Below the pieces are notes generated by a model that saw only the letters and a list, made by a program, of their open reading frames with translations, had not been told where the DNA came from and did not search any database. Shown piece after piece: positions 13,990 to 50,352 of a DNA stretch of 64,000 bases. The DNA lies in the IMG/VR virus record IMGVR_UViG_3300046534_001361, positions 12,280 to 76,279 of that record. One strand, written 5' to 3'. The first letter of the stretch is position 1, and every line of letters begins with the position of its first letter. Made by a program: the position numbers and the translations under genes. This DNA is from a virus.

Positions 13990-14463
13990 ATGAAAATTAC
14001 GCAACAACAATTAGTAGATCTCGGTGCGTGTAAGCCGGGTTTTGATCGGTTTATCGAACAAACAGGCAATACGGATCAGCCAGTTAAAATATTGAACTTG
14101 ATCGGTGGGAAAAATACCACGGATGATCTTTTATGGTTCGCTGGTGAAACATTACCAAAAATGAAGATTGTAATATTTGCCGTTGAATGCGCTGAAAGTG
14201 TGTTGCATCTACACACCGATCCACGTGTTCTTGCTGCTATCCAAGCGGCCAGGGATTGGATAAAGGAACCGTCCGAGGTGCATAGATTAAACGCCCGTGA
14301 TGCCGCTGATAATGCCGGTGATAATGCTCCTTCTGCTGCTGCTTATGCTGCTGCTTATACTTCTTCAAATGTTGTTATCTATGCTAGTAATGCTGCTCGT
14401 CATGCTAACGCTGCACCTAATGAAGCGGTTAAAACCTCACTGATTCAGCTGTTTTCAGAGTAA
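13990..14463 (+). CDS. Family A copy 2 (shortest variable tract)
   Basis: ATG 13990 after GAGGA; same core as the other copies. Confidence 0.85.
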   Translation: MKITQQQLVDLGACKPGFDRFIEQTGNTDQPVKILNLIGGKNTTDDLLWFAGETLPKMKIVIFAVECAESVLHLHTDPRVLAAIQAARDWIKEPSEVHRLNARDAADNAGDNAPSAAAYAAAYTSSNVVIYASNAARHANAAPNEAVKTSLIQLFSE

Positions 14464-14608
14464 AACCGATCAACCACAAGCCCGGCTATCTAATGCCGGG
14501 CAAACTAAATTAAACCAATTTTATTTAAAAGTTGCAGTCTGTCATCAGTGTGTTAATATCAATTCATCGGCAAGACGCCGCAAGCCACTACCAAAAGCGA
14601 GAAATAAA
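14461..14608 (+). repeat. Cassette element, full copy: stem-loop + promoter + leader
   Basis: AACCACAAG-CCCGGC-TATCTAAT-GCCGGG, AT-rich UP-like tract, TTGCAG-N16-TAATAT with TGTGT before the -10, CATCGGCAAGACGCC leader, AGCGAG RBS. Confidence 0.9.
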
Positions 14609-15271
14609 ATGACAGCACCAACAATTACAAAGCAAGAACTAATAAAATTAGGCGCAGACCAGGACCTAATTAGCCGGTTCATCGAACAAACCAATAACAC
14701 CGATCAGCCAGTTGATATCCTAAGTTTAATCGGCGCAGAGAACGCCACGGATGATCTTTTATGGTTAGCCGGTAAAATTCTCCCAAAAATCAAAATTGTA
14801 CAGTTTACCGTTGAGTGCGCAGAAAGTTTGTCGCATCTACACACCGATCCCAGTGCTATTGCTGCGATCCAAGCGGCCAGGGATTGGATATCGGAACATC
14901 CCGAGGGGAATAGATTAAAAGCTCGTGATGCTGCTTATGCTGCGGCTAATGCTGCTGCTTCTGCTGCTGCTTCTGCTGCGGCTTATACTGCGGCTAATGC
15001 TGCGGCTAATGCTGCTGCTTATACTGCTGCTTCTGCTGCGGCTTATACTGCGGCTAATGCTGCGGCTAATGCTGCTGCTTATACTGCGGCTTATGCTGCT
15101 GCTTCTGCTGCTGCGGCTAATGCTGCTAATACTGCTATCTATGCCGCTTATGCTGCTTCAAATGCTGCTGTTAATGCTGCTTACGCTGCTTATGCTGCTA
15201 GTGCTGCTGCTGATTATGCTGCATCAAATGAAGTGGTTCGGGCCTCGCTGATCAAGATGTTTTCAGAATAA
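14609..15271 (+). CDS. Family A copy 3 (longest variable tract)
   Basis: Same core; near-perfect 60-bp tandem repeat at 14941-15090. Confidence 0.85.
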   Translation: MTAPTITKQELIKLGADQDLISRFIEQTNNTDQPVDILSLIGAENATDDLLWLAGKILPKIKIVQFTVECAESLSHLHTDPSAIAAIQAARDWISEHPEGNRLKARDAAYAAANAAASAAASAAAYTAANAAANAAAYTAASAAAYTAANAAANAAAYTAAYAAASAAAANAANTAIYAAYAASNAAVNAAYAAYAASAAADYAASNEVVRASLIKMFSE

Positions 15272-15514
15272 ACGGAGTAACCACGATCCCTTGATAATCT
15301 TTAATTTACGTTGAGCAGATTGAGTTTGAAATTAATTTCAAACTCAATTATACTTAAAGTATTGACACAGACCGGAACCTTTTAGGGGTGTTGATGTCGG
15401 AGGAAACTTTCCCAGCCTGTGTGCGGGATATTGAAAGGCAACGCCGGATTTGATTTTATTCTATAAAAAAGCGCATTAACAATGCTCTTTTTTGTTGCAA
15501 GATACAGTATCCGT

Positions 15515-15880
15515 TTATTTACTGCCCCATCTATGCGGCCTATGCCTATCCTGATGATTCAATCTTTTAAATCCATCAATTAGCATTTCATTTGCGCAGT
15601 TAATTACATCAGGTTCTAATTTCTTGTTATTTTTCCGATTGACTTTGTAATGAACACCACGAATGTCATACCAATACTGACCAATTTTAGAGTAAACGTG
15701 ACCCTCAATACAGTCATGCCAGATCTCATGATTGGCTTGCCCTACAATGTTTCTTAATATTAGACTAAACCGGTAGCACTCACCTTCAGTATAGAGCCTG
15801 ACGGCATCAGGATTACTATCTCGTATAGCGCCTATAATGGCAACAAGATGTTTTTTTGTTGGTTTATTGAACGCCATCAT
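15515..15880 (-). CDS. Hypothetical protein
   Basis: LYTEGECYRF..HVYSKIGQYWYDIRG, a common phage small-protein pattern. Confidence 0.65.
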   Translation of the reverse strand: MMAFNKPTKKHLVAIIGAIRDSNPDAVRLYTEGECYRFSLILRNIVGQANHEIWHDCIEGHVYSKIGQYWYDIRGVHYKVNRKNNKKLEPDVINCANEMLIDGFKRLNHQDRHRPHRWGSK

Positions 15881-16126
15881 AAAGCCTCTTTGCTTTTGAA
15901 TGAATTGAGTTTGACTTTTTATTTATCTGATCGTAAAAATAGCGTGGCCGAATATCTCACCCTAAATAGTTTTAAATATTAAGCCAGTAAATACAATCGT
16001 GTATTACTGGCCCTTCGCAAAGTTTTAACCCTGTGTTTATATACCCCTGACCTTATCACATTATATTGTTTAGCTTTGATTGATTCAAAGTGATACCAAC
16101 CAATATAATAGACTTTAATTCCAAGC

Positions 16127-17737
16127 CTACTTAAATTTAGGTCCAAAAACTGCTTTTTTACGGCCTAAAATAGTAACAGCTGCATATCTGAATGCGTCTG
16201 CCCCGTGTGATGACCAATCATGTAACGGTTGATCACGCCAGCATTCGCCTTTATCATTCCATGCTTTTCGGTATGCCTCCAGTGCTTTAATTCCAAGCTC
16301 GCAGGTCTTTTCGTCAAAAACCGATTTATCTAAAAGTTTCCTGGCGTGATTTATACCCTGATCAACACCCAGCTTTGGCACTGTCTGAAATATTATTTTA
16401 TACAATTGCCCGTCATCATCTAAATCAAACCCTATTGCGGCCACTTGTTTAGTTGTTTTTGCTCCAGTAGCTGAAAATTGCCTATTGTCGATATCATGGG
16501 GGCCGTAGTGAGTGCCATACGTGTACTTCTTGGCAATCCCTCTATTCCTGATGTATTTAGCGTAATGATCCAAACCTTCACCGCTGTTTTCATAGTAATC
16601 AACAAAATGAATTTGATTGTTAATTTCTTGCCAAAACCAAATTGCAGTTGAATCACCTACGCCCAGATCCCATGCTGTATTAACCCTAGCGTCATTGCCA
16701 AATCCTGAGCAAATACGTTTTTCTTTGTGTATTTCGGTAAATTGAGTTTTATAGTAAGCGCCTTGAATGGTTTTTTCAAACGCTTCTTCAGGTGTTGTTG
16801 GGTATTCCTGCCGCATCTCATCCCGTAGAGTGTTCCATTTACCAGAATACCAAGCTCTTCGATCGTCATTAATAACTATACCAAGCGTAGCTTCTAGATT
16901 ATCAAAGTAAGGGATCAGCGTTTGCGCTATGTCGCCGCCCGGTAAAATATATTCTTCCCTCTGGAACCAGCTGTAAAAATGCCCCTTCCAATCGAGATTT
17001 GATAACACTTTTTGAAGCCTCACATTTTTTAGGCCGTCCTGACAGATTTCATAATAATAACCCTCCCGCCCATCTGCTGTAGACTCCAGGGTTATACTTC
17101 CGTTGACTGGTACAGCCTCAAACGCACCGCTGATTATCTCTTTTGCAACGTCTGGGCTATTCCTGCATATTTTTCCAAATTCAGACACGTGTAAATCATC
17201 CAGTGTATCACCCCGGTACCCTGTGCTGACCTCTACACTGGATCCGTTAGAAAATACATATGAGTTACTAGTGTCTGATTTTGCTAATGGCAGCTCATAC
17301 CCCATTTCTGAGATGATCTCTCGCTGCACCTGGGTTATTGACTCAAACGCGAATTTTATTTTATTGCGGAATATTTTTTTGGCGTCATCCATTTTATGAC
17401 ATATAACACCGGAGGCAAAATTAGCAACAAACAAACAACTGTCCAAGTTTTGAATCATTTTAAACGTAGTAAAACCTAATTGCCTGACCTTTAAAATAAC
17501 ATCCCTTGTGTGGCTGTTTAGATAGTAGTGTTCCTGTTCTTTGTTTGCTTTAAATGTGATCACTTTGCTTGCGCAATCCTCGTCCTCGTCCGGGCTTGCC
17601 TTTGTCTTTATCTTGTAGAGCGTGTTAATCCTAAACCAGGTGTAGGTCATGGCCTCAGCCATTTGGTCTATATTAAGATCGCTTACATTGTTTAAATACC
17701 AACACGCTTGATTGTGGTTCTCAGTGCTTACTGCCAC
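16127..17737 (-). CDS. terL: Terminase large subunit
   Basis: ILKVRQLGFTT Walker A, LHVSEFG Walker B, ESTADG, AWDLGVGDSTAIW and HDWSSHGADAFRY nuclease motifs. Confidence 0.95.
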   Translation of the reverse strand: MAVSTENHNQACWYLNNVSDLNIDQMAEAMTYTWFRINTLYKIKTKASPDEDEDCASKVITFKANKEQEHYYLNSHTRDVILKVRQLGFTTFKMIQNLDSCLFVANFASGVICHKMDDAKKIFRNKIKFAFESITQVQREIISEMGYELPLAKSDTSNSYVFSNGSSVEVSTGYRGDTLDDLHVSEFGKICRNSPDVAKEIISGAFEAVPVNGSITLESTADGREGYYYEICQDGLKNVRLQKVLSNLDWKGHFYSWFQREEYILPGGDIAQTLIPYFDNLEATLGIVINDDRRAWYSGKWNTLRDEMRQEYPTTPEEAFEKTIQGAYYKTQFTEIHKEKRICSGFGNDARVNTAWDLGVGDSTAIWFWQEINNQIHFVDYYENSGEGLDHYAKYIRNRGIAKKYTYGTHYGPHDIDNRQFSATGAKTTKQVAAIGFDLDDDGQLYKIIFQTVPKLGVDQGINHARKLLDKSVFDEKTCELGIKALEAYRKAWNDKGECWRDQPLHDWSSHGADAFRYAAVTILGRKKAVFGPKFK

Positions 17738-18317
17738 CTTTTAGCCTCTGCTCTAAAGTTAACTCGCCAGTATGCGCTACCTCTGACTGTGTCGGTTTGT
17801 CATATCCCATCAATTTAGCAAGCTGAGCTTTTGCGACTTTTGAATCATGTATTTTTATTTTGAACCCTTCCTTGCCCGCCGTTAGCTCAGTGATCAGTGA
17901 TAAATCCGACTCGGATAGCGCGTTAGAACTTTTAAACTGCCATACAGATTGAGTTGTCGGATTACCCTCTTCATCACTAACAATCGTATCGCCAAAAGTT
18001 ATAAGTTTTGATAGGGACCCACGCGCCTGATTAGTCAAGGACCTTGCCATTTCATCGCGGGACATTATAGCGTCATCTACACGTCCGTAATGCTCTGACG
18101 CCATTGACCCAATGAATGCAACAACATTAAGATTTGATAAGATTTGACTTACGCTGGTTCTTAGTGTCCTGTCTGCCTTTGCTTTGCCTGATGAGTTTTT
18201 ATAGGCGTCAACATCGCTCATCCCCTTGATCGAGTTTAATGATATTTCCCTTTGTAACGGAGTTAATTTATCAAACAGATCTTTTTGCTCCTGCGTCATT
18301 TTGAATTGCTTTACCAT
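17721..18317 (-). CDS. terS: Terminase small subunit
   Basis: Overlaps terL; HTH-like N-terminus and KIKIHDSKVAKAQLAKLMG motif. Confidence 0.85.
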   Translation of the reverse strand: MVKQFKMTQEQKDLFDKLTPLQREISLNSIKGMSDVDAYKNSSGKAKADRTLRTSVSQILSNLNVVAFIGSMASEHYGRVDDAIMSRDEMARSLTNQARGSLSKLITFGDTIVSDEEGNPTTQSVWQFKSSNALSESDLSLITELTAGKEGFKIKIHDSKVAKAQLAKLMGYDKPTQSEVAHTGELTLEQRLKGGSKH

Positions 18318-18413
18318 AATGGCCTCGCGCGTTACTTTTTTAATTGTGATAGTTTATTATACACAAATCGCAACAGGAAACAAATAACCACATTATAGGC
18401 GGAGTTACTTACA

Positions 18414-18692
18414 TTAGGGCACATTGCCATCAGGGTTTTTATACGTCATCGTTAATCCTAACTGACACATTTTAAATTTAAATTCAGAACCCGATCCAAT
18501 GGGGCAATTAATTGAGTAATATTTTTTTTGCTTCGGGTAATTGTCAACCTCAACGCTCCATGTGTTTTTCATATAGCAAATTATTTTCGCGACCGTTTTC
18601 CTGTGATGATTGTACAACTCACAATGATAGCGCGCATATGGGTTTTTAATCAGTCGGATATTGTCGAAAATTTCATGCGGTAATAATTTCAC
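18414..18692 (-). CDS. Hypothetical protein
   Basis: 92 aa, GGAAGG RBS. Confidence 0.5.
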   Translation of the reverse strand: MKLLPHEIFDNIRLIKNPYARYHCELYNHHRKTVAKIICYMKNTWSVEVDNYPKQKKYYSINCPIGSGSEFKFKMCQLGLTMTYKNPDGNVP

Positions 18693-18854
18693 TTTCCTTC
18701 CTTATTCTTAACATACAATCCTAAAATTTTATAACCCACTTTTAGACTAATTAAATACCATAAAACCATTGCCATAATCCCTGTGCGATCAAACATAAAT
18801 ACTGCTTTTTTATGATTTAACCCTTAATATTTTTGTTATGGCGCAATGCACCGG

Positions 18855-19025
18855 CTATTCCAGGTCCCACACATCAGAGTGAATAAAATCTAAATCTTTG
18901 GATTCTTCAAGGTCCGCAAGTTTTTTGCGGACCTTTGTTGCTTTTTCAGTATCGTTGGCGTTTCGATACCATAACGGTTTTCGGCTGACTAGAGCACCGA
19001 CTTTCTTTTGCTCAGACATACTCAT
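18855..19025 (-). CDS. Small protein ending FIHSDVWDLE
   Basis: GAGGATTAAAATC-ATG start; 3' end shared with 19897..20079. Confidence 0.6.
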   Translation of the reverse strand: MSMSEQKKVGALVSRKPLWYRNANDTEKATKVRKKLADLEESKDLDFIHSDVWDLE

Positions 19026-19036
19026 GATTTTAATCC

Positions 19037-19857: not shown

Positions 19858-19896
19858 CGTTTAATCCTCAATTTTTGTTATGGTGCAATGCACCGA

Positions 19897-20111: not shown

Positions 20112-20222
20112 AGTAATTTAATAATAACACACCCAGTGCGGGATGCAACTTTTAAATCAAATTGGTTTAAATTAAATTCCCGGCAATTAGATAGCCGGGA
20201 TCGTGGTTGCTCGGTTTTATTC
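20112..20222 (-). repeat. Cassette element, full copy
   Basis: AACCACGAT-CCCGGC-TATCTAATT-GCCGGG...AAAGTTGCAT-N16-TATTAT. Confidence 0.9.
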
Positions 20223-20531
20223 AAATATTCCTGTTTCTTTTAACGCCCTATTTTCCGTTTCAGATCCACGGTAACCGCTAAAATCTTCTTCGAACTTTTC
20301 GGCGGTTATTACCGCGTAAAAAGGCTCGTCGGTTTCGCTCCAACTTTGCGGGCCGACATATGGCCTACCATTTAAGTTAGTTGCTATGATTAAAACATTC
20401 CCGTCTTCTTTTCTGTATGCCATAGCCACCATTTGGTTAATAGATGTTTTGCCGATTTGTTCAATATTTCCATACGGAATTGTAACGCCGCCGATTTTGT
20501 TTAGTACTTTTGTTAATGAGACCGTTTTCAT
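20217..20531 (-). CDS. Hypothetical protein (cassette cargo)
   Basis: Stop codon embedded in the element (GAATAAAACCGAGCAACC). Confidence 0.6.
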   Translation of the reverse strand: MKTVSLTKVLNKIGGVTIPYGNIEQIGKTSINQMVAMAYRKEDGNVLIIATNLNGRPYVGPQSWSETDEPFYAVITAEKFEEDFSGYRGSETENRALKETGIFE

Positions 20532-21403: not shown

Positions 21404-21443
21404 TGTGTTATCCTCTTGGTGGTTTGTTTAGCTTTAGGCGGTG

Positions 21444-21560
21444 CGCCTTGTCGATGAATTAATAATAACACACTGAGCGGAGACTGCAACTTTTAAATTA
21501 AATCAGTTTAAATTAAATTCCCGGCAATTAGATAGCCGGGATCTTGGTTGCTCCGTTTAT
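21444..21560 (-). repeat. Cassette element, full copy
   Basis: Same stem-loop; TTGCAG-N16-TATTAT; CATCGACAAGGCG leader variant. Confidence 0.9.
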
Positions 21561-21589
21561 TCTCAAAATAGATTGATGAGTGAAGCCCT
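21557..21589 (-). pseudogene. 3' relic of a seventh family A gene
   Basis: Reads R-A-S-L-I-N-L-F-stop-E-stop versus RASLIKMFSE*/TSLMNLFSE* in intact copies. Confidence 0.7.
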
Positions 21590-21613
21590 ATCAGCCGAGA
21601 TCATACGTTTAGG

Positions 21614-27640: not shown

Positions 27641-27865
27641 TTAAAACGTGGTCGGTTGCGCGACACCGCGAATCGCCCACATAAAGCCCTGTTGCAGATT
27701 GGTTCTACCCAGGGCCACCGCGCGTTTATCCGTCGAGGCATCAGATTCGAGCGCCGCGATAAATTCGCCGACTTGTTCAGCCAATGCTTTACCCTGATTC
27801 ATTAAATCAATCTCGCGCTGCGAAAGGTCGCGGTACCCTTTTATTTTCTGGTGTTGATTGTCCAT
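27641..27865 (-). CDS. acb2: Anti-CBASS cyclic-oligonucleotide sponge, Acb2 family
   Basis: MDNQHQKIKGYRDLSQREIDLMN and ALGRTNLQQGFMWAIRGVAQPTTF match both hallmark halves of Acb2 as I recall them. Confidence 0.9.
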   Translation of the reverse strand: MDNQHQKIKGYRDLSQREIDLMNQGKALAEQVGEFIAALESDASTDKRAVALGRTNLQQGFMWAIRGVAQPTTF

Positions 27866-27946
27866 TTTAAATTCTCGCTCTTTTTTATATTATTGAGTTA
27901 CTACATTAAGTTTTGTCGCCACAAGTACAGTGCCGATGAATTCATA

Positions 27947-28423
27947 TTAACACAAATTATTGATTATTGTTTCGGCCTGCCCTTTATTAGCCATTAATAC
28001 ACTATCACCGTTGAGGTATACAGCCTGGAAACCTCGGCTTTCGTAATATCGCTGTAGATTAAAACCCTTTAGTTGAGGTTCTGCTGTTAGAGCCACGAGT
28101 ATGTCTACTTTTGTAACATCTAATGTCTGACTCTCAAAATTCGACATCAAAACCTTACCGTATCCCTGCCCTCGCCATATACGCTTAACGTATAGCTCAG
28201 CTAACAAACCCACCGTACCATATTTATCGCGTAAAATCGAGATCAGCGCATTGATGTAGCCGGATTTGTCAGGCAATGAAAGTATTAATTCGCCTTTCAT
28301 CCATTTATAGCTCTCATCGTCGCTAGCTATGACTGTTCTGACTCGACCGTGATCACTCTCAGTTAGACATACGTGATCACGAGTCCACATTCCATCCGGC
28401 CAATTGCTACCGTTGACTATCAT
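27947..28423 (-). CDS. GNAT acetyltransferase
   Basis: LYVKRIWRGQGYGKVLM and YYESRGF. Confidence 0.8.
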   Translation of the reverse strand: MIVNGSNWPDGMWTRDHVCLTESDHGRVRTVIASDDESYKWMKGELILSLPDKSGYINALISILRDKYGTVGLLAELYVKRIWRGQGYGKVLMSNFESQTLDVTKVDILVALTAEPQLKGFNLQRYYESRGFQAVYLNGDSVLMANKGQAETIINNLC

Positions 28424-33270: not shown

Positions 33271-33786
33271 TTATTTATCTAATATAACACGATTTCCAGT
33301 TAATAACGCAAGTGAAAAATCACGGGCCTTATAGCAGTCCTCAGCTTCAAACCAGGCAAAATGACAATCAACTTCTTTGATTTCCATCAGGACAGCGAGT
33401 CGTTTATAAGCCCTGCCTGCACCAATTAACTTACAAAGGGCCGTAAATGGAACTTTGCATTTTGCCCTAGTGGCTCTTAATTTTGCTTTAGCCATTGTGC
33501 CAATGGGGATGTATGTCCATACATGACATCTTACGTGGCTGTCGCACGGTTCACAGCGGTAAATCCAAGGCCACTCGTTCGACTGCCCCCCAAAAACAAC
33601 AAATCGATCAACTAGATTGACTGGCCCGCCGCAATGCCTACAAAATTTAGGCACAGGCATTGGGTTTTGGTTTTTTATTTTATTTTTCATTTTACGTTTA
33701 CTTTTGATTTTTGACTTTCGATTTTTGAACTTCGTTATTTCATAACTCGCGGCTTTTTTAATGTAGTTTTTACCTGATTTTGACAT
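33271..33786 (-). CDS. Zinc-finger protein (DUF3268-like)
   Basis: CRHCGG...YRCEPCDSHVRCH...PIGTMA...CHFAWF. Confidence 0.8.
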   Translation of the reverse strand: MSKSGKNYIKKAASYEITKFKNRKSKIKSKRKMKNKIKNQNPMPVPKFCRHCGGPVNLVDRFVVFGGQSNEWPWIYRCEPCDSHVRCHVWTYIPIGTMAKAKLRATRAKCKVPFTALCKLIGAGRAYKRLAVLMEIKEVDCHFAWFEAEDCYKARDFSLALLTGNRVILDK

Positions 33787-33856
33787 TGTGTTCTCGCTCT
33801 GTTAAATTTAGTTGCCCGGCATTAGATAGCCGGGATCGTGGTTGCTCGGTTTGCTA
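33787..33856 (-). repeat. Cassette element, stem-loop half
   Basis: AACCACGATCCCGGCTATCTAATGCCGGG followed by the AGAGCGAGA leader of the next gene. Confidence 0.85.
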
Positions 33857-34462
33857 TGAAAATAGCTTCCTTAGTGAAGCCTGAACCACTCTATTGGATG
33901 CAACATAAGCCGCATAAGCAGCATAATTAGGATCAAAAGCATCAGCATTAGCATCATAAGCAGCATTAGCAGCATTAGCAGCATAATAAGCGGCATTATA
34001 AGCAGCATTAGCAGCATTAGCATCATAAGCAGCCTTAGCAGCGTAATAAGAAGCATAAGCCGCATTGGCCGCATTGGCAAAAGCAGCAGGATAAGCAGCG
34101 TTAAGAGCATTACTAGCAGCATAAGCAGCGTAATTAGCAGTATTACGGGCGTTCAATCTATTCTCCTCGCATGGTTTCCTTATCCAGTCATTAGCCGATT
34201 GGATCGCAGCATTATCACTCGGATTATTGTTCAGATGCGACACGCTTTCCGCGCACTCAACGGCAAACTGTACAATCTTGATTTTTGGGAGAGTTTTACC
34301 GGCAAACCATAAAAGATCAGCCGTGGTATTCTTTCCGCAGATTAAACTAAGTACATTAACAGCCTGATCAGTGTTGCCTGTTTGTTCGATAAACCGGCTA
34401 ATTAGGCCCTTGTCTGCGCCAAGGTCTACTAATTGTTTTTTCGTAATTGTTGCCGTTGTCAT
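33854..34462 (-). CDS. Family A copy 4
   Basis: Same core and Ala/Tyr/Asn tract. Confidence 0.85.
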   Translation of the reverse strand: MTTATITKKQLVDLGADKGLISRFIEQTGNTDQAVNVLSLICGKNTTADLLWFAGKTLPKIKIVQFAVECAESVSHLNNNPSDNAAIQSANDWIRKPCEENRLNARNTANYAAYAASNALNAAYPAAFANAANAAYASYYAAKAAYDANAANAAYNAAYYAANAANAAYDANADAFDPNYAAYAAYVASNRVVQASLRKLFS

Positions 34463-34570
34463 TTTCGATTTCGCTCTATTTTAGTGGTCGGTTGTGGCGT
34501 CTTGCCGACGAATTAATATTAACACATTAACAGTTGATTGCAACTTTTAAATCAAATTGGTTTGAATTAA
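34463..34570 (-). promoter_or_regulatory. Cassette element, promoter/leader half
   Basis: AAACCAATTTGATTTAAAAG-TTGCAA-N16-TAATAT...TCGGCAAGACGCCACAA. Confidence 0.85.
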
Positions 34571-34634
34571 GTAGCTAGTTAGGATTTTAGGGCAATAAAA
34601 AGGCCACCCGCAGGTAGCCAATTTAAGCATTGAT

Positions 34635-39938: not shown

Positions 39939-40547
39939 TTATAATATTAATCTCAGTTTTTCCCTAAATAAAACCCTGATATCGCTTAAGGATTCTATCG
40001 TATAAGTTACTTTTTCATGCCGCTTTTTATCCAGATCATCGACAGCCTGTTGACCAATTTTCTTTATCAAATTTGGCGTGTACTCGCCTGAATCACCACC
40101 GTTGTACATGTTGCAGTCTGCGCGTTGACCGTGGATATTATTTTCATCGTATCTTATCGATGGATTATTGCCAGACTCCCAAAAGTGACCCGCTTGGTAA
40201 TTTTCACCCATGGGTTTGTTGCAGCAAATACACAAATCAAACTTGTCCCTTTCTCTTATGAATTCATGAACAACTTTTTTTGTGTTTTTTTCCGCTGCCT
40301 TTAACAACTGCGAGTTTGATTTTTTCTCATTTTTCGGTGTTCTTTTTTTGTTTGGGTGTATTACACTTTGGTAATGCAATGATGCTTTTTTGATTTCATT
40401 CATTTTTATTTTTTCAAGCGCCGCTTTAGCATTGCAACTCATAGAGCATCTATTTTTCATAAACGCTGGGTCTTTTCCGTGAGTGTATTTATATTCAACT
40501 TTACACTCTAAACAATTTACAGCTCTTTCACGGGCCATTAAAACCAC
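39939..40547 (-). CDS. ninG: NinG/Rap-like endonuclease
   Basis: FIRERD...CICC...QAGHF...IRYDENNIHGQ...CN...NLIKKIG. Confidence 0.85.
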   Translation of the reverse strand: MVLMARERAVNCLECKVEYKYTHGKDPAFMKNRCSMSCNAKAALEKIKMNEIKKASLHYQSVIHPNKKRTPKNEKKSNSQLLKAAEKNTKKVVHEFIRERDKFDLCICCNKPMGENYQAGHFWESGNNPSIRYDENNIHGQRADCNMYNGGDSGEYTPNLIKKIGQQAVDDLDKKRHEKVTYTIESLSDIRVLFREKLRLIL

Positions 40548-40978
40548 CTCAAAAGTTCATTTATTAAATGCTCATCTGTACTATCATCAAATACAATGTT
40601 AAGCGCAGCATTTACGGCCCTAGCATAAAACTCTTGCCGTTCTTCTGTAGGCATTTTTTCGTAAGAAATAGACCTCGGAATAAATTTAAAAAACTTACCA
40701 TTTCTATCAAACGTCGGGTCACAATGACCGGCCGCGATAGTGATCACTTCACGAACGATGCTAAGTTGCACGGGGTTTTTATGTTCATCCACCCCACCAT
40801 AATAATGGTCTGTACAGTATGAAAAAAATGCAAATATTTTGCGGTGTAACCCATAGTTTTGTTCTAATTTCACATCGCAACTATAAGTCTCGTTAAATTT
40901 AATTTTCTTCATTAAATCCTGGCTTTTCTCGTCCGCAGGATAAAAGCCAGTTTTATTTTTTACGAGGTGTATTTTCAT
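40538..40978 (-). CDS. DUF1367/NinB-like protein
   Basis: NYGLHRKIFAF, ITIAAGH, PRSISYEKM..EER.EFY. Confidence 0.8.
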   Translation of the reverse strand: MKIHLVKNKTGFYPADEKSQDLMKKIKFNETYSCDVKLEQNYGLHRKIFAFFSYCTDHYYGGVDEHKNPVQLSIVREVITIAAGHCDPTFDRNGKFFKFIPRSISYEKMPTEERQEFYARAVNAALNIVFDDSTDEHLINELLRWF

Positions 40979-41856: not shown

Positions 41857-42081
41857 AATTCACCTGATTATTTTTAATAATTGAAGTGCTAATGCTATCA
41901 TATTATGTGCAAATAGTAAACCTATTATGTTTAATCAGTTTAATTGCGCTGGTCGGTATTGTTATCATCAAACGAGTTGACAATAGTATGAATGGCAATA
42001 ACGGCAACCGCAATCAACAGTAAAGCAGCTAAAGTTCTCATGGCGCACCGCAAGGGTTCAATATTTTCATTATGGATGACA

Positions 42082-42142
42082 CCTCTGTTTAATTTAGTTT
42101 GCCCGGGGATTAAATAGCCGGGCTTGTGGTCGATCGGTTTTG

Positions 42143-42145
<3 letters not shown>
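42082..42145 (-). repeat. Cassette element, stem-loop half
   Basis: AACCGATCGACCACAAGCCCGGCTATTTAATCCCCGGGCAAACTAAATTAAAC. Confidence 0.8.
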
Positions 42146-42667
<522 letters not shown>

Positions 42668-42820
42668 TTTCGATCTCGCTCTATTTTAGTGGTGGGTTGT
42701 GGCGTCTTGCCGATGAATTGATATTAACACATTCAAAGCAGACTGAAGATTTTAAATCTAATTAGTTTAAATTAAGTTTACCCGGCTATTAGATGGCCGG
42801 GATCGTGGTTGCTCCGTTTA
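42668..42820 (-). repeat. Cassette element, full copy
   Basis: Stem-loop CCCGGC-CATCTAATA-GCCGGG, degenerate -35, TGTGT-TAATAT; leader identical to the one at 43415-43478. Confidence 0.9.
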
Positions 42821-43414
42821 TTCTGAAAACATCTTCATGAGTGAAGCTTGAACCACTTCATTTGATTCCGCATAAGCAGCAGTATAAGCAGCAGCATAAG
42901 CATCATCAGCATAGATAGCAGCATCATTAGCATTAGCATGAGCAGCAGCATAAGCAGCAGCATAAGCAGCATAAACAGCAGAAACAGCAGCATCAGCAGC
43001 ACAATAAGCAGGAGAAGCTACATAAGCAGCAGAAGCAGCATAAGCAGCAGCATCATAAGCAGCATCACAGACTTTCAATCTATTCACCTCGGATGGTTCC
43101 GATATCCAATCCTTAGCCGATTGGATCGCAGCATTAGCTCTGGGATCGGTGTGTAGATGCGACACACTTTCAGCGCATTCAACGGCGAACTGCACTATCC
43201 TGTGCTTTGGCAGGGTTTTACCGGCCAACCACAGAAAATCAGCCGTGGTATTTTTGCCACCGATCAAACTAAAAATCTCAACGGGTTGATCGGTGTTGCC
43301 GGTTTGTGCGATAAATCGATCAAAACCCGGCTTACACGCACCGAGATCTACTAATTGTTTTTTCGTAATTGTTGGTGCTGGTGCTGGTGCTGGTATTGGT
43401 ATTGGTGCTTTCAT
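42818..43414 (-). CDS. Family A copy 6
   Basis: Same core; N-terminal IP/AP 6-bp repeat expansion. Confidence 0.85.
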   Translation of the reverse strand: MKAPIPIPAPAPAPTITKKQLVDLGACKPGFDRFIAQTGNTDQPVEIFSLIGGKNTTADFLWLAGKTLPKHRIVQFAVECAESVSHLHTDPRANAAIQSAKDWISEPSEVNRLKVCDAAYDAAAYAASAAYVASPAYCAADAAVSAVYAAYAAAYAAAHANANDAAIYADDAYAAAYTAAYAESNEVVQASLMKMFSE

Positions 43415-43517
43415 TTTCGATCTCGCTCTATTTTAGTGGTGGGTTGTGGCGTCTTGCCGATGAATTGATATTAACACACTGGCGGCAGGGTGCAACTTTT
43501 AAATCAAATAAGTTTAA
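43415..43517 (-). promoter_or_regulatory. Cassette element, promoter/leader half
   Basis: TTGCAC-N16-TAATAT immediately after the dnaB stop. Confidence 0.85.
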
Positions 43518-44882
43518 TTAAGTAGAATACTTACGGGGTTCATTTTGCTCAACTATCGGCACAGGGCGATCTGTAGAAACAAATTTACTCCGACTCAAAT
43601 GACTTTCCAGAACATCAGATCCCACTTCACCCATTCGCACTTTTCCAGAAATTATTTTAGCCAACATGCCGTCCTCATTTTCTTTCCCGTATTCGTCCCG
43701 ATGAATTAGCATGATCCAATCCGCAGTTTGCTCTATTGCACTAGCACCAAATAACTCGGATATTTTAGGCTCACCTATGCCTGATCTGTTCATTTGGGAT
43801 AAAACTATAATCGGGCAATTCATCTCTTTTGCTAAGTTTTTAAGCCCCAAAACATTTGATCCAATTTCTTCGGTTTTACTCCTGCCACTACCTGTTATTA
43901 GCTGTAGATAATCAACAAAAATACCGTCAACTTTACCATGTTTTATTTTTTGCATTCTGACTCTCGAATTGATTTGAGCTAGTGATAATCCGCCGCTATC
44001 ATCGAGGTAAAGATTTGAATCATAAAGGTCTGCCATCGCTTTAGATACTAACGTAAATTGAGTATCATCAGACATATAATCCGATCGCTTAACGCTGTTA
44101 ATGCCAATATTTGACATGGAGCTGATCAGTTTATGGCGAATTAAAATGTCAGGCATTTCTAGACTAAAAAACAAAATGTGTTTCTTTTCGTGGATCGCCA
44201 TGCTTTCAAGAATGTTCATAGCAAAAGTTGTTTTTCCCATTGAGGGCAGCCCGCCAATTACAATAAGATCTCCATCTTGGGCACCACCAGATCTTTGATC
44301 AAGATCAGCAAATCCAGTGCTAATACCCGTCAACGCAGAGTCGCTCTGAAATACCTTTTCGGCATGATCAACATATTCGCCCATTTGATCTTTAATGTGC
44401 TTTAATCTGCCTTCATTTTCACTTTCGATTCCAACCCCCGCAACCGCAGCAATTGAATCACTAACGCGCTGTGAAATCATCCCAGAGCCGTTTAATATAT
44501 TTAATGCGTCAATATATCCCTTATGTAGTTTTCTGGCGCTAGAGTAGCTTTGAATGCGCTTTACGTGACCATCTGAGAATATTCTGGGTGAGCTTTTAGC
44601 TATTTCACCCAAATAACCAAACCCACCGATCTGATTAGACTGCCCCAATTCGTCAATATGCTGATTTAAGTTTACTAAATCAAAACTATCACCTTTTCCG
44701 TTAAGATGTACAATTGATGCCATGATCAATCGATTTTTCTCAAAATAAAAATCATCAAATGATAATCCATCAAATGCTATTGCGTTGCTCTCTGTTAGTC
44801 GAGCGTTGTTGATTAAGGAGCCAAGCACAGCAGCTTCAGATTCAGCTGAAAACAAATTGTGTTGTGGATTTAGATTTAGCAT
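43518..44882 (-). CDS. dnaB: Replicative DNA helicase
   Basis: ESEAAVLGSL, GISTGFADLD, GGLPSMGKTT, FSLEM, VDYLQL, LSQMNR. Confidence 0.95.
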   Translation of the reverse strand: MLNLNPQHNLFSAESEAAVLGSLINNARLTESNAIAFDGLSFDDFYFEKNRLIMASIVHLNGKGDSFDLVNLNQHIDELGQSNQIGGFGYLGEIAKSSPRIFSDGHVKRIQSYSSARKLHKGYIDALNILNGSGMISQRVSDSIAAVAGVGIESENEGRLKHIKDQMGEYVDHAEKVFQSDSALTGISTGFADLDQRSGGAQDGDLIVIGGLPSMGKTTFAMNILESMAIHEKKHILFFSLEMPDILIRHKLISSMSNIGINSVKRSDYMSDDTQFTLVSKAMADLYDSNLYLDDSGGLSLAQINSRVRMQKIKHGKVDGIFVDYLQLITGSGRSKTEEIGSNVLGLKNLAKEMNCPIIVLSQMNRSGIGEPKISELFGASAIEQTADWIMLIHRDEYGKENEDGMLAKIISGKVRMGEVGSDVLESHLSRSKFVSTDRPVPIVEQNEPRKYST

Positions 44883-47794: not shown

Positions 47795-47967
47795 ATTTAT
47801 TCCTATTTGGTTTTTATATACCTTAGCATTTAACCAACAAGTTAACCAGATAATTATTTAATTAATTACAAGAAATGAACTAAAATTTAGTTGTGATTGA
47901 GGTTTGACTGTGCTAAGATGGAATCTAAATAAATTGCTACAACGACAATTAAAACAGGTGAAGAACG

Positions 47968-48624
47968 ATGAACAAATTACAAAAAGAAACGGCAATCGAA
48001 CTGATGAAAGGCCACCAGGTTGCTGATCTAATTCAACAGGGAGATTGGTTTAACCCAATTTCCGGCGTAGGCTGCTGTTACGGGTGCATGATGCAAACGG
48101 ATGATAACGCGCTAGAAAAAGCAGCGGTATTTATGGGCGTACCCCTTTGGTTCGTTTATCTGTCAGAAGCTGTGTTCGAGGGATTGCCGGAAGAAGATTC
48201 TATCTTTTTTCCGGTACAATTGCTGCAATTGATCCCGGTCGATACCGATTTAACCCCAGTCCTGCATTTAACGGCAATTGCCCGGTTAACGCCGCTAGCG
48301 GCGTTAACAACGGGTGAAGTGAAATCTTGCATCAATGCGGTGATTGATTTACACAAGGATTGGGAGAATGCAACAATTGAAATGTGGAGGGCCGCGCAGA
48401 AAGCAGCACACAAAGCATGGTTAGAATGTCCAGTGTTTACAGCCGCAGAGTCAGCCGCAAAGTCAGCGGCATATTCGGCGGGATTGTCAGCAGAGTCAGT
48501 ATATTCGGTATGTTCGGGGGCATGGTCAGCACTTTCAGCACTTTCAGCACGGGGTTCAGGAGGCATATCGCCAAGGGAACAGGAGCGGGATAATTTATTT
48601 GCAGCCCTGCGCAGTATCAGTTAA
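47968..48624 (+). CDS. Family B copy 2
   Basis: Near-identical to 6911..7672, inverted; shares the upstream AGGTGAAGAACG RBS. Confidence 0.8.
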   Translation: MNKLQKETAIELMKGHQVADLIQQGDWFNPISGVGCCYGCMMQTDDNALEKAAVFMGVPLWFVYLSEAVFEGLPEEDSIFFPVQLLQLIPVDTDLTPVLHLTAIARLTPLAALTTGEVKSCINAVIDLHKDWENATIEMWRAAQKAAHKAWLECPVFTAAESAAKSAAYSAGLSAESVYSVCSGAWSALSALSARGSGGISPREQERDNLFAALRSIS

Positions 48625-48926: not shown

Positions 48927-49106
48927 ATGGCAACTACATCATTCAACAAAAACTTTGTTGTAACAGATCAAACTAGTATAAAAAACTTAGCAAAAGATCT
49001 TCTTACGCCACATAAAATTGTAATTAATAAACGTGATTATCAAACTGATAAAGTTAAAGGTATCGAACTATTAAAACAACGATTGCTCAGCTTAAAGGCT
49101 TGCTAA
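48927..49106 (+). CDS. Small protein, possible orphan antitoxin
   Basis: MATTSFNKNFVVTD...KGIELLKQ resembles small partners of GNAT toxins (recollection only). Confidence 0.4.
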   Translation: MATTSFNKNFVVTDQTSIKNLAKDLLTPHKIVINKRDYQTDKVKGIELLKQRLLSLKAC

Positions 49107-49566
49107 AAGCATTTAATAAAGAAGTATTTTAAGTTAAACAATAACTCAAAACATAGGGAAATACCTTACTAATGATCAAACGAGACTAAGAACTAATTTG
49201 AGGCGTTGATAAAATGATCGTTTATCCTGGCATCATAGGCACTAGCAAAGGGTCTCGATTATTTTTTAGGTTGCCTGTCTTGAATGACACCTAGTGCGCA
49301 TAAATCATAAACCCGATAACTAATTTGAAATAAATAGATTTAAAAATTGCAGTGTTATATAAGTATCTGTATAGTACGTAATGTAAACTAATATAGTATG
49401 AACAAACTATATTAATTATACAGCATTATATTCCTGCAAATTTCACCTTACGCGAACTTATTAACTTTCAATAAGTCAAAATGTAAAAAACATATACTAC
49501 CAACATGGAAAGCATAAGAACCTTATAGTGGTATGTCATATTTTAAGAATAAATAGAGGATCTAAA

Positions 49567-49860
49567 ATGAAGTCATTCAATAACGCTTTCGAGTTGTTAA
49601 CAGACGATGTCAAAGAGATAGAAAACTACACAATGCGTTCAAACATGATGAATGCGATCGTTGATTTAATTAAGGAGAAAGATTGGACACAAAAAGAAGC
49701 AGCTAAACACTTAGATGTGTCACAGCCGCGCATTAGCAACCTGAAGAACGGGAAAGTAAGTAAGTTTTCAGTTGATATGCTAATAGGGATGTTAGCTAAG
49801 CTAGGTTTTACCTTTGAATTTAACTACACCCCCACAAAGCAAGCCGACATTAATTTATAA
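49567..49860 (+). CDS. XRE/HigA-like HTH protein
   Basis: RSNMMNAI...WTQKEAAKHLDVSQPRISNLKNGKVSKFSVDML. Confidence 0.85.
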   Translation: MKSFNNAFELLTDDVKEIENYTMRSNMMNAIVDLIKEKDWTQKEAAKHLDVSQPRISNLKNGKVSKFSVDMLIGMLAKLGFTFEFNYTPTKQADINL

Positions 49861-49879
49861 GTAAATAACGGGAATTAAC

Positions 49880-50299
49880 ATGAATAACGAACTTAACAAA
49901 AAGTACCTTTTCGCTCTGTGTGAATTTATAAAAAATAAAGAGGAAATGGAAGAATTCAAATTGGAATCAATACAGTCTGGATTGCTAACTAAACAGGATT
50001 GTTCAAATTTTGAGTGCTCTGATCAACCACTGCCATTGACTAACTATCCTGGTTCCGTTGAAGGTCCAATGAAAAAAATTACTCATTTTATGGAACTCAA
50101 CCCGGACTATGCGCACTCCTGGACGGCCAATATTGCAATGCTGATGTTTGACGAGGGCGTTAGCCATCATTCAGCAAATCAGCGGGCATCTAGGTTTGTT
50201 GCTCGCGTGTTTGATTTATCGTTTATTCCGGAGCAGCCAGAGCGGGCTAACGATAATGCAATAAACACGCCGGCGGTTACAATGGAATTATCCACATAA
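49880..50299 (+). CDS. Hypothetical protein
   Basis: DYAHSWTANIAM...HHSANQRASRF conserved phage pattern. Confidence 0.6.
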   Translation: MNNELNKKYLFALCEFIKNKEEMEEFKLESIQSGLLTKQDCSNFECSDQPLPLTNYPGSVEGPMKKITHFMELNPDYAHSWTANIAMLMFDEGVSHHSANQRASRFVARVFDLSFIPEQPERANDNAINTPAVTMELST

Positions 50300-50352
50300 T
50301 TCAAACCAATTAGATTTAAAGATTGCATCTTACGGTTAATGTGTTAATATAC
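50297..50352 (+). promoter_or_regulatory. Cassette element, promoter half
   Basis: TAATTCAAACCAATTAGATTTAAAGA-TTGCAT-N16-TAATAT. Confidence 0.8.

What the first reader, a model, noticed from the sequence alone, without database searches (positions are those of the whole stretch)
14461..50352. Recurrent stem-loop + promoter + leader element, also framing unrelated cargo
Seen: full copies at 14461-14608(+), 20112-20222(-), 21444-21560(-), 42668-42820(-). Promoter halves at 34463-34570, 43415-43517, 50297-50352. Stem-loop halves at 33787-33856, 42082-42145. Truncated boxes at ~11680 and ~15270. Consensus: stop-AACCACGAT-CCCGGC-TATCTAAT-GCCGGG-(AT-rich)-AAAG-TTGCAN-N11-TGTGT-TA(A/T)TAT-AATTCATCGGCAAGACGCC. 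The 11 spacer bases vary freely while the flanks are fixed, as expected for selection on promoter function. The hairpin lacks a clean U-tract, so it may be a processing or recombination signal rather than a terminator. Known analog: PeSL (promoter-early stem-loop) cassettes that shuffle genes in T4-type phages. Inference: an independent version in a siphovirus, using RecT/YqaJ to excise, duplicate or swap single-gene units between direct copies.
Basis: partly seen in the sequence, partly recalled or inferred. Interest (0 to 1): 0.8.

Follow-up and report, generated by a model that had tools for sequence, protein, structure and literature searches.

The report
Repeated terminator-promoter-leader junction in phage
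A 76-kb phage from sea ice has copied one small control unit (an RNA hairpin, a host-type promoter and a ribosome-loading leader) around six copies of one accessory gene and in front of a few unrelated genes, much like the known "PeSL" cassettes of T4-type phages; whether the unit also moves genes around could not be tested.

Summary
The repeat is real and far beyond chance. It has three separable modules. T is a conserved box plus a GC hairpin after a stop codon: 6 full and 2 truncated copies. P is an AT-rich block, TTGCA, a variable spacer and TGTGTTAATAT: 7 copies plus 1 weak. L is a CA-rich leader ending AGAGCGAGA-N-ATG: 5 full copies plus partial ones.

The "element" is the junction between self-contained promoter-gene-hairpin units that were duplicated.

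- The promoter spacer has drifted (44% identity) while its flanks are held at 82-91%, which indicates selection for promoter function.
- The copies are mosaics with 74-78-nt identical tracts, so they exchange sequence by homologous recombination.
- Both hairpins next to unrelated cargo still carry the last codons of a family gene. Cargo therefore replaced family ORFs inside existing cassettes.
- RecT and YqaJ are present. No integrase was found.
- No relative carrying the element was found, and only assembled contigs were available. Gene swapping and excised circles remain untested.

In anatomy this is a PeSL analogue or moron-like cassette. This scan has already noted PeSL-like cassettes in several other phage groups. 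Interest is moderate.

The parts
14455..14611 (+). Full junction C (T+P+L) between family genes 13933/13990-14463 and 14609-15271
   Evidence: hairpin -17.2 kcal/mol, z -4.9
20118..20225 (-). Junction E (T+P). Homology ends just after the -10. It follows the 104-aa gene 20217-20531 and precedes the 60-aa gene 19897-20079
   Evidence: hairpin -14.1 kcal/mol
21435..21566 (-). Junction F (T+P+partial L) in front of the 145-aa gene 20966-21403
21561..21590 (-). Remnant of the last 9-10 codons of a family gene (reads A S L I N L F stop), directly upstream of junction F
   Evidence: aligns with the ...ASLMKMFSE-stop tails of the six paralogs
42665..42827 (-). Full junction K (T+P+L) between tandem family genes 42818-43414 and 42143-42667; its -35 is mutated to TCTTCA
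43412..43521 (-). Junction L (P+L, no hairpin) between the DnaB-like gene 43518-44897 and family gene 42818-43414
   Evidence: 74-78 nt identical to K
34460..34572 (-). Junction I (P+L) in front of family gene 33854-34462
33784..33860 (-). Junction H: T followed directly by the RBS block (P and most of L deleted), in front of the DUF3268 zinc-finger gene 33271-33786
42067..42147 (-). Junction J: T with the same P-less deletion junction as H, followed by only a 10-codon ORF and ~200 nt of non-coding DNA
11051..11103 (+). Copy A: leader/RBS module only, in front of family gene 11101-11682
11673..11722 (+). Copy B: T box kept, but the element hairpin is replaced by a canonical terminator-like hairpin (GCCCC-loop-GGGGC plus a T-run)
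15262..15290 (+). Copy D: T box kept, hairpin lost; followed by a perfect 30-bp AT-rich palindrome at 15319-15348
27863..27954 (-). Copy G: extended -10, start of the leader and the RBS block, in front of the Acb2-like gene 27641-27865
   Evidence: Acb2 homology to PDB 8H2J/8IXZ, E 4.5e-15
50294..50350 (+). Copy M: P module only, followed by a strong hairpin at 50353-50389
49320..49353 (+). Weak P-like copy N (upstream block + TTGCAG, its own -10)
   Evidence: E 0.054
11101..11682 (+). Family paralog 1 (193 aa)
13933..14463 (+). Family paralog 2 (176 aa from GTG; the more likely start is the ATG at 13990)
14609..15271 (+). Family paralog 3 (220 aa; longest Ala/Tyr array)
33854..34462 (-). Family paralog 4 (202 aa)
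42143..42667 (-). Family paralog 5 (174 aa)
42818..43414 (-). Family paralog 6 (198 aa; weak DUF6931 match; all-alpha model)
55123..56843 (+). RecT (55123-56004) and YqaJ-type exonuclease (56001-56843): the phage's own homologous recombination pair
39939..40978 (-). NinG/Rap-like (39939-40547) and NinB/Orf-like (40538-40978) recombination accessory genes, just downstream of the tandem cassettes

Best explanation
The element is the junction between self-contained expression cassettes. Each cassette consists of:
- a host sigma70-type promoter: an AT-rich upstream block, TTGCA, a ~16-nt spacer and an extended -10 reading TG-T-TAATAT;
- an unstructured CA-rich leader ending in a conserved start-associated block, AGAGCGAGA-N3-9-ATG;
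- one gene;
- about 20 nt after the stop codon, a conserved box and a 6-7-bp all-GC hairpin that attenuates transcription and/or protects the mRNA 3' end.

The cassette was built around one accessory gene family (about 110-aa conserved N-domain, Ala/Tyr/Asn array of variable length, conserved C-tail). It was amplified to six copies by segmental duplication, so in tandem pairs the hairpin of one unit abuts the promoter of the next.

The copies keep exchanging sequence by homologous recombination (gene conversion), presumably through the phage's RecT/YqaJ and NinB/NinG functions. In several cassettes the family ORF was deleted or overwritten. Its promoter, leader or hairpin now serves unrelated accessory genes: an Acb2-like anti-CBASS gene, a DUF3268 zinc-finger gene and small orphan genes.

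Shown: the repeat, its modular make-up, the selection signature, the mosaicism and the family-gene remnants.

Inferred: promoter activity, attenuation, the timing of expression and the enzymes involved.
For: 1. Six paralogs carry the modules on their flanks, and self-BLAST homology runs continuously from promoter through gene to hairpin.
2. The junction travels with the gene. H and J share one identical P-less deletion junction (TTAAAC|AGAG), and their upstream genes are each other's nearest relatives in the 3' part.
3. Paralogs are old (dS 0.45-1.5, third-position identity 55-75%), yet the promoter blocks stay 82-91% identical. The 11-nt spacer has fallen to 44%. This is purifying selection on -35, extended -10 and the upstream block.
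4. The hairpins are stable (-11 to -17 kcal/mol) and sit at a fixed 51-53 nt before the -35. One closing pair co-varies: G-C in C and J, U-A in E and F. In copy B the same position holds a canonical GC-stem + U-run terminator.
5. The nearest neighbour switches along every paralog. There are identical runs of 78 nt (K/L leader), 74 nt (coding, 11188-11261) and 43 nt; none of 20,000 shuffles reached these lengths for any of the three pairs.
6. Family 3' remnants lie next to the hairpins of F and E.
7. The start-associated block occurs 6 times in the window against 0.09 expected, always 3-9 nt before an ATG. It precedes four family genes, the acb2-like gene and the DUF3268 gene.
8. RecT, YqaJ, NinB and NinG are present.
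9. The leaders are unstructured.
Against: - No transcript data exist, so neither promoter nor terminator activity is shown.
- The simple sigma70 scanner does not call these promoters, because the -35 matches TTGACA at only 3 of 6 positions. It does not call the hairpins as terminators on the sense strand, because the loop is 8-9 nt and the U-tract is interrupted.
- The hairpin loop and the 18-nt box before it are more conserved than a plain terminator needs.
- Conservation of the 29-nt upstream block at 85% is more specific than a generic UP element needs. A factor-binding role is therefore not excluded.
- The identical K/L tract lies partly in a selected region, so selection could contribute to its length.
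- The 'ORF replaced inside a cassette' history rests on two short remnants.
Confidence: 0.6

Rival explanations
1. Active PeSL-type mobile cassettes. The junction itself is the recombination substrate that brings cargo in and out. RecT/YqaJ-mediated crossovers between direct copies excise single-gene circles, delete or duplicate units, and swap cargo between co-infecting relatives. This would be the main origin of the unrelated genes now next to the modules.
For: - The anatomy matches the PeSL description.
- Direct copies share exact runs long enough for phage recombination: K-L 74-78 nt at a 747-bp spacing, and E-F 38 nt at a 1,341-bp spacing.
- The phage encodes RecT, YqaJ, NinB and NinG.
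- Gene conversion between copies has occurred.
- One Logan contig of the source run joins 20938 back to 18859, and another skips 19040-19644. The 18.8-21 kb region is therefore structurally polymorphic in the sample.
Against: - Those two joints do not lie in the T/P/L modules.
- Both cargo-side hairpins retain family-gene codons, and cargo breakpoints fall at different positions in the leader. This fits illegitimate replacement better than element-to-element crossover.
- The F-E interval holds two genes, a further terminator-like hairpin and a spacer.
- No relative with the element exists in any collection searched, so no cargo difference could be scored.
Confidence: 0.22
2. Regulon signal. 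The conserved 29-nt block upstream of -35, the first ~20 nt of the transcript and the AGAGCGAGA block are binding sites for a phage-encoded (or host) transcription or translation factor. They are kept alike by selection for that factor, giving coordinated control of an accessory or anti-defence gene set. The hairpin is a separate terminator.
For: - Conservation extends well beyond the sigma70 contacts while the spacer drifts.
- The upstream block contains a 15-bp imperfect palindrome, AAACCAATTTGATTT.
- The RBS block precedes unrelated genes, including an Acb2 homologue. This resembles the start-associated sequences of Cluster K mycobacteriophages (PMC3203893).
Against: - No candidate factor was identified.
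- Conservation is also explained by common descent plus selection for a strong promoter and a good translation start.
- This reading explains how the modules are maintained, not why they flank paralogs, so it complements the best explanation more than it replaces it.
Confidence: 0.13
3. Site-specific or transposable element. The hairpin would be an attC-like or other recombinase site, or the ~150-bp unit would be a MITE-like mobile repeat.
For: A conserved hairpin with a conserved loop lies next to single-gene units. Truncated copies B and D both break at the first CCC of the 5' arm.
Against: - There is no tyrosine or serine recombinase on the 76-kb circular contig.
- There are no terminal inverted repeats or target duplications around the unit.
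- The hairpin is a short perfect GC stem without attC-type bulges.
- All copies are co-oriented with the flanking genes and sit at fixed distances from stop and start codons.
- No copies occur elsewhere in the 3.5-Mb assembly.
Confidence: 0.03

Closest known systems
PeSLs (promoter-early stem-loops) of T4-type myoviruses RB49/phi1, T4/PST, KVP40/nt-1 (Arbiol et al. 2010, PMC2839356; Comeau et al. 2014, PMC4122927)
   Same: - A composite intergenic motif bounded by the upstream stop codon and the downstream SD/ATG.
- It holds a stable stem-loop, an AT-rich tract and a sigma70-type -35/-10.
- It is repeated many times among small accessory genes.
- The copies are similar enough to serve as patches for homologous recombination.
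   Different: - The host genome is not T4-like. It has lambdoid-type replication and nin-like modules, RecT/YqaJ, a P22-like coat protein and a tape measure.
- The stem is CCCGGC/GCCGGG, placed ~50 nt upstream of -35, not polyG/polyC within or next to the promoter.
- The motif also has a conserved leader and RBS block.
- Most copies flank one paralogous gene family rather than diverse ORFans.
- Promoter and terminator activity, mini-circles and cargo differences between relatives, all shown for PeSLs, are untested here.
Morons of lambdoid and other temperate phages (Cumby, Davidson and Maxwell 2012, PMC3594210)
   Same: A single accessory gene forms an independent transcription unit with its own promoter and terminator, set between genes of a phage operon. 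Here it sits between the replication genes and a nin-like region. The GC content is somewhat higher than the surroundings (0.43-0.48 against 0.40).
   Different: - Six diverged copies of the same unit lie in one genome, with shared regulatory sequences.
- No integrase was found and lysogeny is not established, so expression from a repressed prophage cannot be assumed.
- No related phage lacking the unit is available for comparison.
Start-associated sequences (SAS/ESAS) of Cluster K mycobacteriophages (Pope et al. 2011, PMC3203893)
   Same: A short asymmetric conserved sequence lies a few nucleotides upstream of the start codons of several unrelated non-structural genes, in one orientation, and is rare in the host genome.
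   Different: The sequence is different (AGAGCGAGA against GGGATAGGAGCCC) and lacks a full AGGAG core. There are only 6 copies, four of them in front of paralogs, so much of the repetition here is by descent.
Single-copy homologues of the cargo family in phages 9NA, Sashavirus, Vibrio phages and Shewanella phages 1/4 and 1/40 (all annotated as hypothetical proteins)
   Same: They share the N-terminal domain (50-65% identity over ~60-90 residues), an Ala-rich array and a ...L.KLF.E tail.
   Different: There is one copy per genome, and none of the T, P or L modules lie around them.

Membership tests
PeSL (T4-type promoter-early stem-loop cassette) | Repeated intergenic motif containing a sigma70-like -35/-10 promoter | tested here: met
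   Seven copies of TTGCA, a ~16-nt spacer and TG-T-TAATAT (extended -10). The flanks are conserved and the spacer is free. This is a sequence-level test only. The -35 matches the consensus at 3 of 6 positions, so the simple scanner misses these promoters.
PeSL (T4-type promoter-early stem-loop cassette) | AT-rich tract upstream of the -35 | tested here: met
   A 29-nt A/T-rich block is 85% conserved among copies.
PeSL (T4-type promoter-early stem-loop cassette) | Sequence able to form a stable stem-loop within the motif | tested here: met
   Stability is -11.2 to -17.2 kcal/mol in six copies. The position (~50 nt upstream of -35) corresponds to the published subclass in which the stem-loop lies in the upstream AT-rich region.
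PeSL (T4-type promoter-early stem-loop cassette) | Bounded by the upstream stop codon and the downstream SD + ATG | tested here: met
   The full copies C, E, F and K run from a stop codon to an ATG.
PeSL (T4-type promoter-early stem-loop cassette) | Promoter and terminator activities shown in reporters | not testable with these tools
   No RNA run holds the sequence.
PeSL (T4-type promoter-early stem-loop cassette) | Indels and replacements between close relatives map to the motifs | tested here: inconclusive
   No relative carrying the element was found in IMG/VR, JGI metagenomes, GTDB genomes or the INPHARED phages.
PeSL (T4-type promoter-early stem-loop cassette) | Mini-circles or deletions formed by crossover between flanking motifs | tested here: inconclusive
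   Only Logan contigs were available. No joint mapped to the modules, and contigs drop rare variants.
PeSL (T4-type promoter-early stem-loop cassette) | Resident in hyperplastic regions of a T4-like myovirus genome | tested here: not met
   The genome has lambdoid-type O/DnaC/DnaB, NinB/NinG, RecT/YqaJ, a P22-type coat protein and a TerL nearest to Pseudoalteromonas and Shewanella phages. It is an analogue, not a member.
Moron | Independent transcription unit with its own promoter and terminator | tested here: met
   Met at sequence level: P+L upstream and T downstream of family genes.
Moron | [quoted passage not shown] | tested here: met
   Family genes are 0.43-0.48 and the acb2-like gene 0.52, against 0.404 for the window. 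The difference is modest.
Moron | Expressed from the repressed prophage; absent at the same position in related phages | not testable with these tools
   The contig is circular and has no integrase. No relatives were found.
Integron cassette / attC | Neighbouring IntI-type tyrosine recombinase | tested here: not met
   There is no PF00589 or PF00239 match on contig C1.
Start-associated sequence (Cluster K mycobacteriophages) | Short asymmetric conserved sequence a few nt upstream of the start codons of several genes of different families | tested here: met
   AGAGCGARA-N3-9-ATG occurs 6 times against 0.09 expected, before three different gene families. The sequence is unrelated to the mycobacteriophage SAS, so this is an analogy only.
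DUF6931 (PF22011) / Imm5-like, for the flanked gene family | Pfam score above the gathering threshold | tested here: not met
   Scores are 24.5 and 26.6 bits against a cut-off of 27. No Imm5 family appears at E <= 0.01. There is no PDB sequence or fold match.

The most novel reading that the evidence does not exclude
The blocks conserved beyond the sigma70 contacts are the 29-nt partly palindromic upstream block, the first ~20 transcribed nucleotides, the AGAGCGAGA start-associated block and the box-plus-loop of the hairpin. In this reading they are recognition sites for phage-encoded factors that define a dedicated regulon of counter-defence genes: six diversified Ala/Tyr-array paralogs, Acb2 and a zinc-finger protein. 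The same blocks would double as portable homology arms through which RecT/YqaJ plugs new genes into that regulon.
Probability: 0.12. Interest if true: 0.65.

Novelty: new variant of a known kind. Interest (0 to 1): 0.42.

Why it matters
If the modules work as read, this phage shows how a ready-made expression cassette spreads inside one genome. A gene is amplified together with its promoter and hairpin. The copies stay recombinogenic. Decayed copies then leave behind plug-in sockets that express newly acquired accessory genes such as an Acb2-type anti-CBASS sponge.

That extends the PeSL idea of regulatory sequences acting as linkers for modular shuffling from T4-type myoviruses to a lambdoid-style phage with RecT/YqaJ recombination. 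It also links the idea to the moron concept.

The fixed flanks around a free spacer give a clean natural mutagenesis map of a marine gammaproteobacterial-type promoter. The six-fold amplification of a gene that is single-copy in the other phages found to carry it marks it as a candidate for functional study, possibly in counter-defence.

Tried and rejected
- **Exact-pattern scans for the hairpin and the promoter/leader:** IMG/VR gave 0 hits. JGI metagenomes gave 0 hits.
- **Search for close relatives through DnaB in JGI metagenomes:** none.
- **Megablast of 8 kb against INPHARED phages:** none.
- **Element DNA and family protein in 60 related genomes, and a family profile in 400 genomes of the order:** only the window's own genome matched.
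- **Family alignment in GTDB genome contigs:** none.
- **IMG/VR:** four loci with single family genes but no modules.
- **The look-up of encoding contigs:** closed, so the 11.9-kb Logan contig encoding the nearest outside homologue (P0006) could not be read.
- **Sequencing runs:** two ice-metagenome DNA runs hold the phage, and no RNA holder is listed.
- **Laying contigs on 10800-28200:** no joint at the modules. The joints 14592->11081, 14355->15178 and 14928->15073 are best explained by cross-mapping of the paralogs at 33-44 kb and of Ala-codon repeats. Contigs cannot show rare circles.
- **Rfam:** no family matches the modules at gathering score or at E <= 1 beyond chance-level hits.
- **Leader hairpin (boxB-like) idea:** the leaders fold no better than shuffles. 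Rejected.
- **Family protein:** PADLOC gave no match, a PDB sequence profile gave no match, and an AlphaFold model (pLDDT 79, all-alpha) gave no Foldseek match.
- **Integron/MITE reading:** rejected for lack of a recombinase, TIRs or TSDs.

Full report
**Observation**

A hairpin pattern gave 7 matches at 6 sites (one site matches on both strands) against 0.00 expected, and a -10/leader pattern matched 6 times against 0.01 expected. Self-BLAST, an alignment of 13 copies and profile searches of the whole contig resolve three modules that occur together or apart.

- **T module.** This is the last ~10 codons of a gene, the stop codon, an 18-nt box (AAACCGAGCAACCACGAT) and a 6-7-bp all-GC hairpin with an 8-9-nt loop (TATCTAAT).
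  - Six copies are full.
  - In two copies the box is kept but the hairpin is lost or replaced.
- **P module.** This is a 29-nt A/T-rich block, TTGCA, an 11-nt variable stretch and (A/G)N-TGTGTTAATAT, giving an extended -10 of TG-T-TAATAT about 16 nt after the -35. There are seven copies and one weak one.
- **L module.** This is a CA-rich leader starting AATTCATCGGCAAGACGCC and ending AGAGCGAGATCGAAAATG.
  - Five copies are full.
  - Partial copies lie in front of the 145-aa gene, the Acb2-like gene and the DUF3268 gene.

It missed the copies at 11051-11103, 27863-27954 and 33784-33800.

**Genomic setting**

- The window is bases 12280-76279 of a 76,279-bp contig. The ends of the contig overlap by about 55 bp, so the assembly is circular and probably complete.
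- It is binned with a 3.5-Mb, 233-contig assembly of the same GC content. Every element copy is on this one contig.
- The contig is a tailed phage. It encodes:
  - replication genes: O-like initiator, DnaC-like loader and DnaB;
  - recombination genes: NinB/Orf, NinG/Rap, RecT (PF03837), a YqaJ exonuclease (PF09588) and SSB;
  - packaging and structural genes: TerS/TerL and a P22-type coat protein;
  - other genes: a holin, and a block of ParB-like, PAPS-reductase-like and helicase genes.
- No tyrosine or serine recombinase lies on the contig.
- TerL is only 47-55% identical to that of the nearest sequenced phages (Pseudoalteromonas BS5/HS2, Shewanella 3/49 and Vibrio phages).
- Two ice-metagenome DNA runs hold the sequence.

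**What the modules flank**

- Each product has a ~110-aa conserved N-domain, an Ala/Tyr/Asn array of variable length and a conserved tail (...SNEVVQASLMKMFSE).
- Two of the six were scanned against Pfam. They score just below the DUF6931 threshold.
- The predicted fold is all-alpha and has no PDB match.
- Homologues in phages 9NA, Sashavirus, Vibrio phages and Shewanella phages 1/4 and 1/40 are single-copy, and none of the modules lie around them.
- The family was not found in the 400 genomes of the host's order that were searched.

The "stem-loop + promoter + leader element" is therefore the junction between promoter-leader-gene-hairpin units, and it is seen most clearly in the two tandem pairs.

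**Evidence that the modules are functional signals**

- The paralogs are old. Pairwise dS is 0.45-1.5, dN/dS is roughly 0.1-0.4, and third-position identity is 55-75%.
- Against that background the seven promoters keep 85% identity in the upstream block, 82% at -35 and 91% at the extended -10. The 11-nt spacer is down to 44%. Gene conversion would homogenise the spacer too, so this pattern indicates purifying selection on promoter contacts.
- The hairpins are stable (-11.2 to -17.2 kcal/mol). They start about 20 nt after the stop codon and 51-53 nt before the -35.
- The hairpins show one co-varying closing pair: G-C in C and J, U-A in E and F.
- At the equivalent place after gene 11101-11682 the hairpin has been replaced by a textbook GC stem followed by a U-run. 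This supports a terminator or attenuator role.
- The tails are only partly U-rich, and the simple scanner does not call them. I therefore expect partial termination and/or 3'-end protection.
- The leaders fold no better than shuffled sequence. Their 3' block AGAGCGARA-N3-9-ATG occurs six times in the window against 0.09 expected. Six of the 12 copies in the whole 3.5-Mb assembly are on the phage.
- That block precedes four family genes, the DUF3268 gene and a 74-aa gene whose N-terminal half matches solved Acb2 (p26) structures at E 4.5e-15.

**How the copies are related**

- Junctions travel with genes. H and J have the same deletion junction that removes P and most of L. The family genes upstream of them are each other's closest relatives over their 3' parts.
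- Copies recombine. The nearest neighbour of every paralog changes along its length.
  - Gene 42818-43414 is 100% identical to its tandem neighbour from the -10 through the first codons (78 nt).
  - The same gene is then 96% identical to 13933-14463 over the next stretch.
  - Further on it is closest to 14609-15271.
  - A 74-nt tract inside the coding region is identical between 11101-11682 and 14609-15271.
  - In 20,000 shuffles of the match/mismatch vectors no run reached these lengths.
- Homologous exchange among copies is thus shown, in the form of gene conversion.

**How unrelated genes came to sit next to the modules**

- Directly upstream of junction F lie the last 9-10 codons of a family gene (A S L I N L F, then a TGA where the family has TCA). 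They abut the end of the unrelated 5-kb ParB-like/PAPS-reductase/helicase block.
- The 104-aa gene before junction E ends ...IFE-stop, in sequence that aligns with the family's ...MFSE-stop.
- Downstream breakpoints differ from copy to copy:
  - right after the -10 in E and M;
  - about 20 nt into the leader in F;
  - only the -10, the start of the leader and the RBS block retained in G;
  - only the RBS block retained in H.
- These patterns fit repeated deletion or overwriting of family ORFs inside pre-existing cassettes, with selection keeping whichever module still serves the new neighbour. They fit less well with cargo carried in by crossovers between intact elements.
- The F-E interval is not a single-gene unit. 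It holds a 145-aa gene with its own terminator-like hairpin, a ~430-nt spacer with promoter-like and hairpin sequences, and the 104-aa gene.

**What could not be tested**

- No relative carrying the element was found in IMG/VR, JGI metagenomes, GTDB genomes or the INPHARED phages.
- Only assembled contigs of the two runs could be laid. They break at the repeats and show no joint in the modules.
- Two joints elsewhere suggest structural variants in the 18.8-21 kb region of the population: a skip of 19040-19644, and 20938 joined back to 18859.
- Circles, deletions between direct copies and cargo differences between relatives therefore remain open.

**Comparison with known systems**

- The published PeSL description is an intergenic composite of upstream stop codon, AT-rich tract, sigma70-like -35/-10, a stable stem-loop in one of several positions, then SD and ATG. 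Recombination between copies produces indels and mini-circles (PMC2839356; PMC4122927).
- The present element meets every anatomical criterion. It is not a member of that family.
  - The genome is not T4-like.
  - The stem is different.
  - The functional and comparative criteria are untested.
- Each unit also fits the definition of a moron: an independent transcription unit with its own promoter and terminator and a deviating GC content (PMC3594210). Six diverged copies with shared signals are unusual for morons, and lysogeny is not established.
- The RBS block is analogous to the start-associated sequences of Cluster K mycobacteriophages (PMC3203893).
- Earlier notes of this scan describe PeSL-like cassettes in T1-like, Felix O1-like, phAPEC8-like and phi92-like phages, so the general kind has been met before on other DNA.

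**Verdict**

- The most likely account (0.6) is the amplified, recombining expression cassette of one accessory gene family, whose modules have been re-used for other accessory genes.
- Active PeSL-type shuffling (0.22) and a factor-bound regulon signal (0.13) remain possible. Both partly overlap with the main account.
- I class this as a new variant of a known kind, of moderate interest.

Noticed in passing
window 15361-15496 (+): Rfam match to the enterobacterial Hfq-binding sRNA sraL (RF01408; 58 bits against a gathering score of 39; E 5e-10). It lies just after the truncated copy D and a perfect 30-bp AT-rich palindrome (15319-15348), between convergent genes. A phage-borne sraL-like RNA would be unusual.
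   Followed up: no
window 27641-27865 (-): The N-terminal half of this 74-aa protein matches solved Acb2 (p26) structures 8H2J/8IXZ at E 4.5e-15, and the protein matches PHROG 717. It is shorter than the solved 92-93-aa proteins. It is driven by the element's -10, leader and RBS modules.
   Followed up: partly
window 18794-18914 and 19840-19956 (-): A second, independent repeated junction. Two small paralogs (61 aa at 18855-19040 and 60 aa at 19897-20079, both ending ...FIHS(D/E)VWDLE) are followed by the same GGTGCATTGC(A/G)CC sequence. A shared RBS context, GAGGATTAAA-N-ATGAG, recurs three times in this operon.
   Followed up: no
window 19039/19645 and 20938/18859: Logan contigs of the source run show two joints at depths near that of the phage. 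One skips 19040-19644 and so lacks the GNAT acetyltransferase gene. The other joins 20938 back to 18859, which could be a tandem duplication, a circle or a rearranged variant. Each rests on a single contig with a short side.
   Followed up: partly
window 7013-7684 vs 47956-48549 (inverted): About 650 bp are duplicated in inverted orientation (80-91% identity). This makes gene 6911-7672 (253 aa, next to the head genes) a paralog of 47968-48624 (218 aa, in the control region). Neither has a Pfam family, and 47968-48624 also has no PHROG match.
   Followed up: no
window 35276-36783 (-) and 58697-59398 (+): These proteins are built from repeated ~50-aa HTH-like modules. 36104-36535 is 88% identical to 58969-59397 on the other strand, and there are many internal repeats.
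   Followed up: no
window 50353-50389 (+): Promoter copy M is followed at about +3 by a very stable hairpin (-16 kcal/mol, z -5.6). This could be a small RNA or an attenuator rather than an mRNA leader.
   Followed up: no
window 14926-15222, and the Ala/Tyr arrays of all six paralogs: GCT-rich arrays with many internal DNA repeats. A contig in the source run skips 144 nt (14928->15073). This may be length polymorphism by slippage, or cross-mapping of a paralog.
   Followed up: no
whole contig (G000:C1): The assembly is circular (about 55-bp terminal overlap) and has no tyrosine or serine recombinase, despite lambdoid-type replication and nin-like modules. The lifestyle (virulent, plasmid-prophage or other) is open.
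   Followed up: partly
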